NCBI GenBank assembly: GCA_043228905.1
Contig: JBHGNT010000030.1
Span: 248,001-312,000 of the forward strand
Reading direction: 5' to 3'
DNA length: 64,000 nt
From: Azolla caroliniana
Lineage: Eukaryota; Plantae; Polypodiophyta
How positions within the stretch are numbered: position 1 is the first letter of the stretch; each line of letters opens with the position of its first letter. The notes beneath the pieces were generated by a model. It made no database searches, was not told the origin of the DNA, and saw nothing but the letters and a program-made list of their open reading frames with translations. The position numbers and the translations under genes are program-made. Shown in pieces: positions 7,425 to 38,700 of the stretch.

Positions 7425-9205
7425 CGTCGAGTTCCGCGAGGTGGTATGTGCCGTTGTCGTTCGCGCTCGTCACCGTGTAGGGCCTGAACCACCTCCTAGC
7501 AAACTTTCGCACTGCCTTGTGCTGATGGTCGAGGCTGCTGTCATACACCAAGACCTAGTCGCCTTCCTCAATCTTCTTTGGTCGCAACTGGTGTGTCCGG
7601 TTGAACCGGGTCTTGTTCCGCTCCCTTGTCGCCCGCAGCTTTTCCTTCGCCCTTTTCACGTCCTCCGGCCTTCACTTGAGTTGCCGAATCCACGCCGCCA
7701 GCAACTCCTCCCAGCTCATCTCGCCCTTCCTATCTACCGCCGCCCATGAAGAAACCGTCCGTTCCACCGTCATGATCGGCTTCTGCCCGTACATCAGCTT
7801 CGCCGGCATAAACCCTGTCACCGAACTGTGCATAGTTCGGTCTGCCCATAGTGCGTAAGGAAGGAACCGCGGCCAATTCCTGACCTGCCCTCCGCATGCA
7901 CGTACCAACGCCTTTACGATCAGCCCATGCCCACTTTCTACCTTCTCGTTCGCCTCCGGATTGTACATTGTAGTGAGGGAGAGTTTGACGCCCAGCCGGT
8001 CGAACAACTCCTCAGCTTCTCTCGCATCCAGCTCTCCCCGGTCCGCGACGATCCTCCCGACGCACCCGTACTGACACACTACCTCTTCGACCAGGAACCG
8101 ACATACTGCCGTGGTTGTCTTGTTCTGCAGTGCACGGCCATCCACTTGGTTCGTTAAGTCTTCCCACGCAAGCACCAGGTATCGCATCTGTCCTACTCCC
8201 ATCGACATCGTCACCAAGTCCACCATTCACTTGAAATGGACCGCAAGCGGGTAAGTCGGGTGTAGCTCGTCCCGATGTCGGACTACGGAGTGCATCTGAT
8301 AGCTTTCACAAGTCGTTACGAACTGATGCACGTCCTGGTATAGCCCTGGCCACCAGTACTTCTCCTTCAGCTTCTCGAACGTGGCCCACGTCCCGCGGTG
8401 CCCGGCACAGGAACTCTCGTGAAATGCCGCCAGTAGTTCCTCCTGTTCTTCTTTCTTTGCCACTACTCGGAGCGGGATGTCGTTTCTCTTCTTTGGGTGC
8501 CTCCATATGCACTCGTCCTGTAGGAAGAATTGGTATGCCTTCTTCCGTACCCGGCTCGCCTCTTCTCTCGTCCATGCTGCATTCGGCATCATCGTCCGTA
8601 GGAACCTCCCGATTTGGAGCCACTCCCCGTCGTACCTACTTTCGTCAAATTCGTTAAACACCGGAGCGCTCCCCTTTCTGGTTGCCACGTATGCCGCCTC
8701 GAAGAAATCTACGCCGACTTCCTCGTCCTCCGAAACCATGCTGTCCTCATTTTCGAACCTCGCCCTTGAGAGCATGTCGGCCATGGCGTTGTCTTTTCCG
8801 GAAATATGTCGTATCTCCGGATTCAGGGACTTGATGTATGCTATCCATCTGAGCATTGCTAGGTTCGGTGTCGCACATCCGGAAACCATGCCGAGAATCG
8901 GTAGGCAGTCCGACGACCATGATCTCTGATTTTCCGAAGGCCGATATTCCCCCAGAGAAGGTGAGCCTCGCGCCTTCTAGTCTCTGCATCACCTTCTCGC
9001 AGTCATCGATGTGAGTCGCCACAAAATTCCGACATCCATCCGGTCCAATTGTCTCGTCCTTTTCCTACATCGGGCATCCCCTGATCGGGATGTCATCTAA
9101 GAATGGCATGGTGATGTCCGGGATACAATCCCTGAGCACTTTGTTCATCACGTTCACCATGTGAGCCACCGAGTTCATCCCTCCTTGTGGTAGGGTACAC
9201 ATCCG

Positions 9206-9896
9206 TGTTGGGAGACAGGTCCCTCCGGATGGGAAGGGAGAAGAACAGGTCCCTCCGGATGGGATGGGAAGGGAGAAACGGTATGAACCGGATGGGGAGT
9301 ACCCGACTGCGGAGAGCCGGATGGTGTAGGCCCGGTATGAACCGGATGGGGAGTACCCTACTGCGGAGAGCCGGATGGTGTAGGCCCGGTATGAACCGGA
9401 AGAAGAGACATATTTGTAAATATGTTTCTGAGAGCCCATTGAGGCTACATTTGTAAATAGCCGAAAAGTCATATTAGTATAAATATGACTTAGGGCAAAC
9501 TTTTATGTTAGCTGTTTTTATTGTCGTAATTATTCTTCCTTGTTGGTGCAAGAAGAAGAGAGAGCGCGTAACTGTACAGAGAGAGAGAGAGAGAGAGAGA
9601 GAGAGAGAGAGAGACGAGGTCGTTGCCTCTGTTGTAACCGCCGCCTGTGGCGAAGATCTGAGAGCACGAGGTCGTTGCCTCAGTGAACTCACTGTTGTAT
9701 ATTCCTACATAGTGACAGTTTGCAGCCTGTGGGCTGCCGTGGTTTTTTCCCTATTTTGGGGTTTTCCACGTAAACCTCTTGTGTACCATTTCTCCCTTTT
9801 TTTTTGTGTCGCGTTTCATCACCTGTATTTTTTGTGTATGAAAAGAATCTCGGTTGTGGCCGAGCGTCGGACATAAGGAACGTCGAGTTCTCGTCA
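9206..9896 (+). mobile_element. Copia solo LTR (C4/C5 family) in G1 RT
   Basis: TGTTGGGAGAC...TCGTCA, 5-bp TSD ATCCG at 9201-9205 and 9897-9901, homologous to LTR 48636-49451. Confidence 0.95.
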
Positions 9897-35496: not shown

Positions 35497-35722
35497 GGAA
35501 TCTTACGTAGTCCCGTCCTCTTAATACTAATAGTACTTCTCTTCTTTAGTACTAATTCCCTCTCTGCTTTAGTATTATTCCTAACATCCATTAAACCTGC
35601 GTTTCTGTGTTCTGTTTTCTATTGCTTCTACACAACGTATTCTTTTACATGGTATCAGAGCGCGAGGGTTGAGAACCTCTGCAGCCAACATAGCTTGAAA
35701 AAAAAAACCAACCAAGAGGAAC

Positions 35723-38700
35723 ATGAAAAACAAAATGGATAGAGGCATGGCTAGCTCGCTTCCTACCGAGAAGCTCGACAGAAACAACTACGCATCTTGG
35801 TCCTACAAGATGCACCAGTACCTGCTCGGGCACGGTTACTGGAGCTATGTCGACGGAGCAAATGACACAACACCCGAATCGACACACAGAGATTTCCCGG
35901 TGTGGGAACAGTCGGCAAGCAGAGTATTGTACTGCTTCGCATCTTGTGTGGGCGAACAACTTCTGAGCTATATTCGGGATGTGAAAACGCCAAAAGATGC
36001 TTGGGGAAATTTGAAGAAGATTTTCGCCACAAGCACCATAGCGAGGAAGCTTCAACTCTGACAAGAGCTGAGCAACTTATGACAACGCAATTTGTCAGTG
36101 GCTTATTACACCTCGAAGATCAAAGAGATATGCGACTCCTTAGCCTCTATTGATGTGAACGTCGAGGAAGGCGAGATGGTGCAAATCTGTCTCGGGGGAC
36201 TGGCATCAAAGTTCGGAGCATTCCGAACTGCTATGTGTACACGGGAGAATACGCCGTCATTTTTCGACTTATAGTCGATGCTTCTTGTGGAGGAGAACCA
36301 CGTTGGTGCGTCAACAAGTGCACCCACCAACATCCGGATGTTGTACACGAAGGTGGATCGGCCCCGTGGGCGTGGTGGACGAGGCGGGTCGGCTCGCAAT
36401 GGTAGCGGCCGGCAAGAGCATGAACGAAGGCAAAGAGAAAGTGCCGACAATAGTTCCGGACCCTCCACAAGCAGGGGGAGTCAAGGCGGCGCCGGAGGCC
36501 GGCAAGCAAAGGTTGATACAGAATGCTAGTACTGTGGCAAAAAGGGCCACAGAGAAAGCGAGTGTTGGAAGAAACGCGCCGATTCGGACAAATCTGGATC
36601 CGGCAAGGCCGGCAGAGAGAACCAGCAATACTCACACTACGCAGAAGGATCGGGGGGATCCAAAACCAGAAAAGCCAGTAAAGGGCTAGCCTTGGTGATG
36701 AAACACGAGGCTAACTCGATGAAGAAGACCACTTCCGAATCGAAGGAAGTGTGGTACATTGATTCCGGTGCGTCGAATCACATGACGAGCCACAAAGAGT
36801 GGTTCTCCTTCTTGGAGAAACCCGAACAACCACGAGTTGTCGAAACCGGAGACGACACTCCACACCCAATCGTGCATGTCGAAGAAGTCCCTTTGAGCCA
36901 CATCGGACAGAGGGGGAAGTTGATGAACGTTGTCGTGTTGTTACGCGCGTGTGTATAGAACGAGGCAGGACCACGGGGGTCTTGGACTGAGGAATAACCG
37001 AACAGGAGTAGGAGCAAGAAAGACAATGACCGTGCTTCCACACACACACGCAGATACACAGAAACCGCAACTAAATGAAACAATGGAAACAAGACGAATG
37101 CATATATGTATGTATATATTCTAATGAAAAAGGGTTACAACCGGCAAGCCGGTGAGCAACAAATCTCCTACGCCTACGCACACACACACAGAAGAGCGAG
37201 ATGGAGACTTTGCCGGAAGCACTCAGGCGTTCCGCGAAGCAGAGTCAGCCTCCCAAAAACCTGCACAGAGCAAATACAGAGAAAGACAGAGGAGAAGAGC
37301 TTGGTCCTAGTCCGACAGCACTTTGTCCTCGACAAAAGCGATCCCTTTTACGGTTCCTCTCCCTCTCTTTTATAGCCCAAGGAGGGAAGCCGTTACAACT
37401 TGTTACATCATCTTTATTCCATGTCCTTTAGGACAGAGATATGCCTCGATTTCCTACCTATCAAATCCGTGCGACCTAAGATATTCACATCAGCCGACTT
37501 GTACCTAAATATGTACATTACAACAAAACTTGTGCCCGCGTGTAAGGGCCGGTTCGCGCGCATCATTCTCCAATTCCGCCGAGGGACGGTTTTCTCCACG
37601 ACAACATATTACACATTCCGACCATCACGAAGAACCTGGTGTCGATTGGACAGATAGTCGACCAGGGGATGCAAGTGCGGTTTACGCACCTCGGGTGCTT
37701 CATCGAGGAAGAGGGCCAGATTATTGCGCAAGGGCGCAAAGACGGGAGGATGTTCATCCTCGACGCCAATGACGTAGGCACCACTTTGTTCGCCAAAGGT
37801 CAGAAGATTGAATTGGATATTGATCTCTGGCACAAGCGGATTGGCCACATCAATTACCGGAGGCTTCAAGACCTGCAAACGAAACAAGTAGTTTCCGGTT
37901 TGCCGAAGTTCAGTGCCCGGAAGGCCCAAATATGTGAAGCTTGCCAACTCGGGAAGCAACACCGGCTTCCATTCCCCACCGAACGAAACCGGAGTCGTAA
38001 CAAGCTCGACCTTATTCATTCGGATGTATGGGGACCGGCACAAAACGTTAGTCTTGGCGGGAGTCGATATTTCGTCTCCTTCATCGACGACCACAGCCGG
38101 CATACATGGATCTACCTCATTGAGCGGAAGAGTGAAGTCTTCGAGTGTTTCTGGAACCTGCAAAGCCTAGTTGAACAAGAAACAGAGAGGAAGATCAAGT
38201 GTCTGCGGTTGGATGGCAGAAAAGAATATTTTTCCGGCCAATTCAACAGTTATCTACAGCAAAAAGGAATTCGAAGAGAGTTCAGCTGCAAATACACACC
38301 GGAGCAAAACGGTGTGGCCGAAAGGAAGAACCGGTCGATTGTCGACGCGGCAAGGGCAATGCTGGAGGAGAAGAGCATGCCCCATTTCTACTGGGCCGAG
38401 GCGGTCCAGATGGCCGTCTATATCCAAAACCGTATCGGTGACAAGGTGTCCACGCACGAGCTATGTCCGCGCACGAGCTATATTTCGGACGCGAGCCGAA
38501 TTTGAGACACCTTCGGATATTCGGTAGCATTGCATATGTGCATGTGCGGGATGAGAAGATGAGGAAGTTGGATGCAAAGTCGGAGAAATGCATCCTGGTC
38601 GGTTACTCGCATGAGCAAAAGGGGTATAAATGTTATAACCCCCAGACGAAGCAGGTCCGAGTTAGCTAAGATGTTGAGTTTGATGAGATGGCATCATGGT

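What the first reader, a model, noticed from the sequence alone, without database searches (positions are those of the whole stretch)
7425..37607. Gypsy family with 4-bp TSDs that always read NCGT: CpG-centred, oriented targeting
Seen: five independent insertions, all on the minus strand. TSDs are CCGT (G1: 32742-45, and as ACGG at 6970-73 in the inverted block), CCGT (G2), CCGT (G3), GCGT (G4) and ACGT/ACAT (solo LTR). One target is AT-rich CH1 DNA, so composition alone is a poor explanation. All other elements here with both flanks visible have unrelated 5-bp TSDs, the usual plant pattern. Inference: a chromodomain-less integrase selects ACGN (element strand) around a CpG, possibly methylated, steering insertions into CpG-rich TEs and into its own copies.
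Basis: partly seen in the sequence, partly recalled or inferred. Interest (0 to 1): 0.82.

Follow-up and report, generated by a model that had tools for sequence, protein, structure and literature searches.

The report
Phygy-like retrotransposon inserting at ACGT
These nested plant jumping genes insert with a CG pair at the centre of a four-base target, most often the symmetric site ACGT, which matches a habit already published for the moss Phygy lineage they likely belong to, while the claimed one-way orientation did not hold in 45 further insertion sites.

Summary
The five insertions and their 4-bp target duplications are real: CCGT x3, GCGT and ACGT/ACAT. Five CG-centred sites by chance has p about 2e-6. 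The family is a chromodomain-less Ty3/Gypsy with an 18-nt tRNA-Trp primer site. That trait set is published for Phygy: 186 moss elements, 100% 4-bp TSD, NCGN, tRNA-Trp (Neumann 2019).

The orientation claim fails. In 45 independent junctions of the same LTR subfamily, CG is central in 42 and the other 3 are CpG-decay products. The outer bases are symmetric: A first in 30, T last in 31, ACGT in 22. The window's one-sided pattern is most likely a small-sample effect, although it is unusual (post-hoc p about 0.005).

Most targets are AT-rich, so there is no sign of steering into CpG-rich elements beyond passive site density. Methylation sensing is untested. Phylogenetic membership in Phygy could not be tested. 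The scan noted NCGN duplications before in another, likely fungal, genome (e1-10582392). Verdict: a new member of a known kind, with a sharper palindromic consensus.

The parts
21951..29130 (-). Full-length autonomous element (my G3), 7,180 bp, identical 725-bp LTRs (21951-22675, 28406-29130), TSD CCGT at 21947-50 and 29131-34
26236..28365 (-). G3 gag-protease ORF (709 aa stop to stop; DUF4100 hit)
22748..26251 (-). G3 pol ORF, RT-RNaseH-integrase (1167 aa stop to stop), overlapping gag in another frame; no chromodomain and no second (archaeal-type) RNase H hit
22817..24064 (-). Integrase: HHCC zinc finger, D857-D916-E951 triad, near-invariant ADRGEL, GPY motif, beta-rich C-terminal domain, then a short acidic tail
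28385..28402 (-). G3 primer-binding site, 18 nt complementary to the tRNA-Trp(CCA) 3' end; same site at 19090-19107, 31143-31160 and 32042-32059
12580..19922 (-). Full-length element (my G2), 7,343 bp, 811-bp LTRs 99.5% identical, TSD GCGT at 12576-79 and 19923-26; ORFs 16941-19121 and 13462-16980
20052..31705 (-). Likely non-autonomous partner (my G4), about 4.47 kb once G3 is removed, 541-bp LTRs 99.1% identical, same termini, PBS and PPT; TSD CCGT at 20048-51 and 31706-09
   Evidence: one of its two long internal ORFs (20833-22116) was scanned and had no Pfam hit
7425..32741 (-). Outer, decayed element (my G1) hosting G2, G4 and G3; 5' LTR 32064-32741; TSD CCGT at 32742-45; cut inside the integrase region at 7425
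6941..6973 (+). Last 29 bp of G1's 3' LTR plus its TSD (ACGG at 6970-73), inside an inverted block 6941-7424
36931..37603 (-). Solo LTR inside a Copia element; TSD ACGT (36927-30) and ACAT (37604-07), the second a CpG-decay form
61103..61106 (+). Empty allele of G1's target (single ACGG) in another copy of the chromovirus-like host element

Best explanation
This is a chromodomain-less, tRNA-Trp-primed Ty3/Gypsy family, likely of the Phygy lineage, whose insertions leave 4-bp duplications centred on CG with a symmetric outer preference (A>C>G>>T on each strand, best site ACGT), likely because a two-fold symmetric integrase complex reads the target bases directly. Shown: 4-bp stagger, near-absolute central CG, symmetric outer bases, no orientation, intact gag and pol in two copies. 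Inferred from retroviral intasomes: a 4-bp stagger needs a sharp bend at a central pyrimidine-purine step. Because TA is never used (0 of 45) although it is commoner than CG in the flanks, flexibility alone is not enough, and base-specific contacts to C/G are likely. Candidate contacts (inferred, untested) are the invariant Glu three residues after the second catalytic Asp, which aligns with PFV Ala188, and the conserved basic QH..RKF.RRW segment before the GPY motif. Self-nesting likely follows passively from the roughly two-fold higher density of good sites in the family's GC-rich DNA. The window's NCGT run likely reflects five draws, partly from purine-skewed, co-oriented host DNA.
For: Window junctions. 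45 unique target junctions from 58 metagenome loci, after removing 11 PBS junctions and 2 duplicates: CG in 42 of 45, the other three ATGT, CCAG, CCAT; position 1 A30 C12 G3 T0; complement of position 4 A31 C8 G5 T1; ACGT in 22 of 45 against 6% of background CG sites. In two public runs that hold the window's family, the largest loose-end class shown at the LTR end matches all of ACGT and then diverges (82 and 57 contigs, agreement about 0.33). The PBS equals the complement of the TrpCCA 3' fragment. Phygy traits in Neumann 2019. Pooled 4-bp plant TSDs have a GC-rich centre with AT-rich outer bases (Jedlicka 2019). Integrase folds like PFV and Ty3 integrases. Central YR rule for 4-bp staggers (Serrao 2015). 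E919 in 70 of 70 aligned sequences. Weighted target density 71 per kb in G2/G3 against 35 per kb in flanks. ACGG:CCGT is 19:0 on the element strand around the G3 site.
Against: The window's own pattern (A first in 5 of 5, T last in only 1 of 5) is rare under the symmetric model: p about 0.004-0.006 even with local composition. The statistic was chosen after seeing the data, and the sign test (4:0) gives p = 0.125. The 45 sites cover only the G1/G4/solo LTR type, not the G2 or G3 types. They come from 12 assemblies that may be one campaign, the host species is not shown to be the window's, and only one side of each duplication was seen. No Physcomitrium Phygy sequence appeared among the named hits of three homology searches, so clade membership rests on traits. 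G2 and G3 (7.2-7.3 kb) are slightly shorter than the published Phygy range (7,656-9,968 bp). favours contigs that match more reference letters and hid 86 rows. No integrase-DNA contact was tested.
Confidence: 0.8

Rival explanations
1. The integrase or a host tether reads methylated CpG, so insertions go to 5mCG and thus to silenced DNA.
For: All 3 non-CG sites of 45 are one-step deamination products, and so is one solo-LTR TSD copy in the window. C>T and G>A changes dominate among family copies, and 3 of 5 G4 LTR differences are at CpG, so this DNA is likely methylated at some time. A Copia family that captured an MBD is known in arthropods (PMC6673714, start of abstract only).
Against: Decay after insertion explains these changes: the ACGT/ACAT pair proves it happens. 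No MBD or chromodomain in gag or pol. TA, which presents two methyl groups like methyl-CG, is never used (0 of 45). Many targets are AT-rich with few CpGs. Sequence-specific 4-bp palindromes, including CGCG, are also known in Drosophila errantiviruses; that Drosophila largely lacks CpG methylation is recalled.
Confidence: 0.12
2. One reading: the intasome is asymmetric and selects ACGN relative to the element's strand.
For: 5 of 5 window sites have A at element-strand position 1 and only 1 of 5 has T at position 4; post-hoc p about 0.005. G2- and G3-type LTRs were not sampled outside the window.
Against: 45 independent sites: A first in 30 of 45 only, CCGT 6 vs ACGG 4, discordant 7 vs 8; pooled with the window 11 vs 8, p = 0.65. 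Three of the five window insertions belong to the subfamily that was sampled.
Confidence: 0.04
3. CG centring is a by-product of GC-rich nested targets or of shared history (duplicated loci), not of integrase choice.
For: Three of five window targets are about 60% GC with 9-11% CpG.
Against: Flanks of the 45 outside sites average 42% GC and 3.7% CpG, yet 42 of 45 are CG-centred. All flanks are distinct after removing 2 duplicates.
Confidence: 0.01

Closest known systems
Phygy, non-chromovirus Ty3/gypsy clade of Physcomitrella/Physcomitrium patens (Neumann et al. 2019, PMC6317226; passages, section 15 and supplementary table 5 read)
   Same: 4-bp TSD, NCGN preference, tRNA-Trp PBS, no chromodomain, no extra RNase H, no extra ORF, coding region filling the internal part.
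   Different: Host is likely a fern or other non-seed plant (named relatives: Adiantum nelumboides 60-73%, Riccia up to 64% over the near-complete pol). Elements are 7.2-7.3 kb against 7.7-10.0 kb. Here the motif is refined to a symmetric ACGT optimum with T excluded 5' of CG. Their per-element TSD table (additional file 1) was too large to read and may already show this.
Pooled plant 4-bp TSD logos (Jedlicka et al. 2019, PMC6911290; passages read)
   Same: GC-rich central dinucleotide with AT-rich outer bases and palindromic character; Phygy mostly 4 bp; Phygy nested into Tcn1 chromoviruses, as G1 sits in a chromovirus-like element here.
   Different: Pooled over families and species; no Phygy-only consensus or orientation test in the passages seen.
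Ginger1 DNA transposons (Bao, Kapitonov, Jurka 2010, PMC2836005; passages read)
   Same: Gypsy-like integrase, 4-bp CG-centred TSDs (CCGG 75%, CCGT/ACGG 24%), TGT termini, GPY/F motif.
   Different: DNA transposons with terminal inverted repeats, in animals; optimum CCGG rather than ACGT.
Drosophila errantiviruses gypsy, ZAM, Idefix (PMC5408687; passages read)
   Same: Sequence-specific palindromic 4-bp targets (TATA, CGCG, ATAT).
   Different: Insect lineage; the ZAM site has a central GC step, not CG.
TatI and Selgy (Neumann 2019 table)
   Same: 4-bp TSD; TatI also uses tRNA-Trp.
   Different: TatI carries an archaeal RNase H (no such hit here); Selgy uses tRNA-Ala and is 4.4-6.7 kb; no NCGN preference is listed for either.
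Prototype foamy virus intasome (Serrao et al. 2015, PMC4422553; passages read)
   Same: 4-bp stagger, symmetric preference, central YR step, T disfavoured at the first TSD position; closest solved structures.
   Different: Weak statistical preference there; near-absolute CG here.

Membership tests
Phygy | Falls in the Phygy clade in RT/RH/INT phylogenies (the primary criterion) | not testable with these tools
   The reference FASTA is too large to read; no Physcomitrium sequence among the named hits
Phygy | 4-bp TSD | tested here: met
   5 of 5 window insertions, one with a decayed copy
Phygy | NCGN target preference | tested here: met
   5 of 5 in the window; 42 of 45 outside
Phygy | tRNA-Trp primer-binding site | tested here: met
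   18-nt match in 4 of 4 elements that have a PBS to the TrpCCA tRF-3T row in the supplement of PMC5389709
Phygy | No chromodomain and no archaeal RNase H | tested here: met
   Pfam scan of both pol ORFs; model ends in one beta-rich C-terminal domain; no such family in the precomputed domains of the 120 homologs listed
Phygy | No extra ORF; polyprotein fills the internal region | tested here: met
   G3 ORFs span 22748-28365 of an internal region 22676-28405
Phygy | Length 7,656-9,968 bp (descriptive, P. patens only) | tested here: inconclusive
   7,180 and 7,343 bp, just under a single-species range; the authors call size of little value for classification
TatI | Archaeal RNase H domain in pol | tested here: not met
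   No such hit
Selgy | tRNA-Ala PBS, 4.4-6.7 kb | tested here: not met
   tRNA-Trp PBS, 7.2-7.3 kb
Chromoviruses | Chromodomain at the integrase C-terminus | tested here: not met
Ginger1 | Terminal inverted repeats, no RT | tested here: not met
   LTRs, PBS, PPT and RT are present

The most novel reading that the evidence does not exclude
The integrase itself reads 5-methyl-CpG inside a symmetric ACGT site. It would be a reader-less retroelement integrase that senses DNA methylation directly, and part of an old CpG-seeking integrase clade spanning mosses, liverworts, ferns, fungi and Ginger1 transposons.
Probability: 0.12. Interest if true: 0.75.

Novelty: new member of a known kind. Interest (0 to 1): 0.24.

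Why it matters
Most plant LTR retrotransposons show no target sequence; Phygy is the published exception and has had little follow-up. This locus adds a likely vascular-plant member with young, intact copies (G3 has identical LTRs and open gag and pol). It also gives a quantitative consensus: CG nearly obligatory, ACGT best, T excluded before CG. That makes a CpG-specific integrase available for biochemistry, including the open question of whether methylation matters. The surprising part of the original claim, oriented targeting, is not supported.

Tried and rejected
No whole genome was held, so the genome-wide logo could not be made. The LTR-end pattern gave 0 matches in viral contigs, and pol gave no relatives in viral or prokaryote contigs. 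Three scans for a tRNA gene carrying the PBS complement found nothing, and two paper searches did not identify the tRNA; a supplement did. The first read-laying did not list target-junction rows among those shown. Only 1 of 58 loci held the other LTR end, so two-sided TSDs outside the window were not seen. Three protein searches and a cluster look-up gave no named moss Phygy sequence. The P. patens RLG2 transcript in a supplement was cut at 400 letters and was uninformative. The Atlas search gave generic Gypsy/GIN1-like integrase clusters, a lead only. No base preference was evident beyond the 4-bp duplication at positions 5-20. The tandem LTR-ACGT-LTR junction of L014 was not bridged by contigs in two runs. 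Rejected: oriented ACGN, composition artefact, pure flexibility read-out (TA 0 of 45), TatI, Selgy, chromovirus.
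Full report
OBSERVATION. Self-comparison and junction read-outs recover a nested stack of one minus-strand Gypsy family. An outer decayed element G1 (5' LTR 32064-32741) sits in a chromovirus-like element. G2 (12580-19922) and G4 (20052-31705) sit in G1, G3 (21951-29130) sits in G4, and a solo LTR (36931-37603) sits in a Copia element. The labels are mine. On the plus strand the duplications are GCGT (G2), CCGT (G3, G4), ACGT/ACAT (solo) and CCGT for G1. G1's other end survives inverted at 6941-6969, followed by ACGG. 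An empty allele of G1's target carries one ACGG at 61103-61106. Four unrelated elements have 5-bp duplications. Five CG-centred sites at local CpG frequency have probability 1.8e-6.

ANATOMY. G2 and G3 have a gag-protease ORF and an overlapping pol ORF (RT, RNase H, integrase). Neither pol has a chromodomain hit or a second RNase H hit. LTR pairs differ at 4, 0 and 5 sites in G2, G3 and G4, so these insertions are young. All four elements with a PBS carry the same 18 nt, which is the complement of the Arabidopsis TrpCCA 3' fragment (one supplement row of PMC5389709). G4 has the same ends but is about 4.5 kb, and the one internal ORF I scanned has no Pfam hit, so it is likely non-autonomous. 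Homologs form a compact group at 46-83% identity. The named ones are from the liverwort Riccia and the fern Adiantum nelumboides (120 listed of 226, 1330 and 180 hits), so the host is likely a non-seed plant, probably a fern (inference). The integrase model (pLDDT 77.6, 70 sequences) matches PFV and Ty3 integrases best.

INDEPENDENT TEST. No genome was held, so I scanned metagenome contigs with the 24-nt 3'-LTR terminus shared by G1, G4 and the solo LTR. This gave 58 loci from 12 assemblies. Eleven were PBS junctions and two were duplicates, leaving 45 target junctions. The four bases after the LTR are CG-centred in 42 of 45, against a flank CpG frequency of 3.7% (p about 1e-56). The other three (ATGT, CCAG, CCAT) are single deamination products of CG. 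Position 1 on the element strand is A30 C12 G3 T0, and the complement of position 4 is A31 C8 G5 T1 (chi-square p = 0.51; 7 A-only vs 8 T-only sites). ACGT makes up 22 of 45, and CCGT (6) is as common as ACGG (4). The pooled half-site is enriched 2.7-fold for A and depleted about 30-fold for T against background (p about 1e-20). Contigs of two public runs laid on an LTR-ACGT junction agree: the largest loose-end class shown matches the whole ACGT and then diverges (82 and 57 contigs; 86 rows hidden, and the method favours longer matches). The target is therefore a symmetric site centred on CG with ACGT as optimum, not an oriented ACGN.

RESULTS AGAINST MY READING. Under the symmetric model, A first in 5 of 5 has probability 0.12-0.13. 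The full window pattern (also T last in at most 1 of 5) has only 0.004-0.006, with or without local composition. That statistic is post hoc. The sign test is 4:0 (p = 0.125), window against outside sites gives Fisher p = 0.10, and the pooled count is 11:8 (p = 0.65). Target-strand skew helps at some sites (ACGG:CCGT 19:0 around G3) but does not remove the oddity. The outside sites do not sample G2- or G3-type LTRs, may come from a related host and a single campaign, and show one side of each duplication only.

STEERING AND METHYLATION. Median flank GC is 0.41; 22 of 45 flanks are at most 40% GC and 3 of 45 are at least 55%. Four of 45 junctions open directly into family DNA, two co-oriented and two opposite. 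A fifth flank matches the family from base 39 and a sixth has a short match further out; four match the window's Copia elements. Family DNA offers about twice the weighted target density of those flanks (71 vs 35 per kb), enough for passive self-nesting. Metagenome assembly favours unique flanks, so this test is soft. C>T and G>A changes dominate among family copies, which fits methylation, but the ACGT/ACAT pair shows decay after insertion. Nothing here tests methylation at the moment of insertion.

MECHANISM. Shown: 4-bp stagger, central CG, symmetric outer bases. From established work (Serrao 2015, passages): 4-bp-stagger intasomes bend the target sharply at a central pyrimidine-purine step and give symmetric preferences. 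TA is 6.6% of flank dinucleotides but 0 of 45 centres, so base-specific reading of C/G is likely (inference). Candidates are the Glu that aligns with PFV Ala188, present in 70 of 70 aligned sequences, and the conserved basic segment before GPY; neither was tested. From recall, Ala188 contacts bases outside the duplication, so the basic segment may be the better candidate for the CG itself.

COMPARISON. Neumann et al. 2019 state that Phygy elements prefer NCGN, the one exception among plant lineages. Their table gives 186 elements, 100% 4-bp TSD, 81% tRNA-Trp, no extra domain or ORF. Every trait I could test matches, except a slightly shorter length. The phylogenetic criterion could not be tested, because the reference FASTA and the per-element TSD table were too large to read; the latter may already hold the ACGT bias. 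Jedlicka 2019 report pooled 4-bp TSDs with a GC-rich centre and AT-rich outer bases. Ginger1 transposons use CCGG and CCGT/ACGG, and Drosophila errantiviruses use TATA, CGCG or ATAT. A search for 'NCGN' with 'retrotransposon' returned three papers, only Neumann relevant. A search for 'Phygy' returned 18; I saw the listing for all and passages of four, and saw no Phygy-specific ACGT consensus or fern record. A search on methylated-CpG targeting listed 15 of 33 papers, listing only; the nearest was an MBD-carrying arthropod Copia. The library lacks most subscription papers.

VERDICT. A real CpG-centred target preference, already known for the lineage this family likely belongs to. The oriented claim is refuted by nine times more sites. 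The refinement to a symmetric ACGT optimum and the likely extension to a fern are modest additions. Methyl-CpG sensing stays open at about 0.12. Interest 0.24.

Noticed in passing
L014:227-320; table 5c (run X2): Head-to-tail LTR ends separated by only four bases (ACGT in L014, GCGG in one X2 contig). A TSD recreates a good target, so a second copy may insert into it and form tandems. L014 is rearranged further on, and no contig in two runs bridged it.
   Followed up: partly
window 20052-31705: G4 shares the family's termini, PBS and PPT but carries long GC-rich ORFs (28656-31154, 20830-22119) unlike pol; likely a non-autonomous partner. Its LTR terminus has very high depth in public runs.
   Followed up: partly
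window 6941-7424: Inverted block holding 29 bp of G1's 3' LTR and about 450 bp of the host element, with deletions on both sides.
   Followed up: partly
window 48606-48625: Three telomere-like GGGTTTA repeats between a cut Copia element and the next Copia LTR.
   Followed up: no
window 23495-23497 region of pol (residue 919 of the stop-to-stop translation): Near-invariant ADRGEL motif puts a glutamate at the position matching PFV Ala188 (70 of 70 sequences).
   Followed up: partly
window 31143-31160: The PBS complement is identical to the abundant small RNA filed as miR894, which is a tRNA-Trp 3' fragment and could target this family's PBS.
   Followed up: partly
L019:401-440: The LTR terminus breaks after about 24 bases into a sequence resembling the opposite LTR end; possibly an insertion into, or a rearrangement of, an LTR tip.
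   Followed up: no
window 42175-43236: Decayed reverse-transcriptase-like reading frames on the minus strand that look LINE-like by eye; not tested.
   Followed up: no
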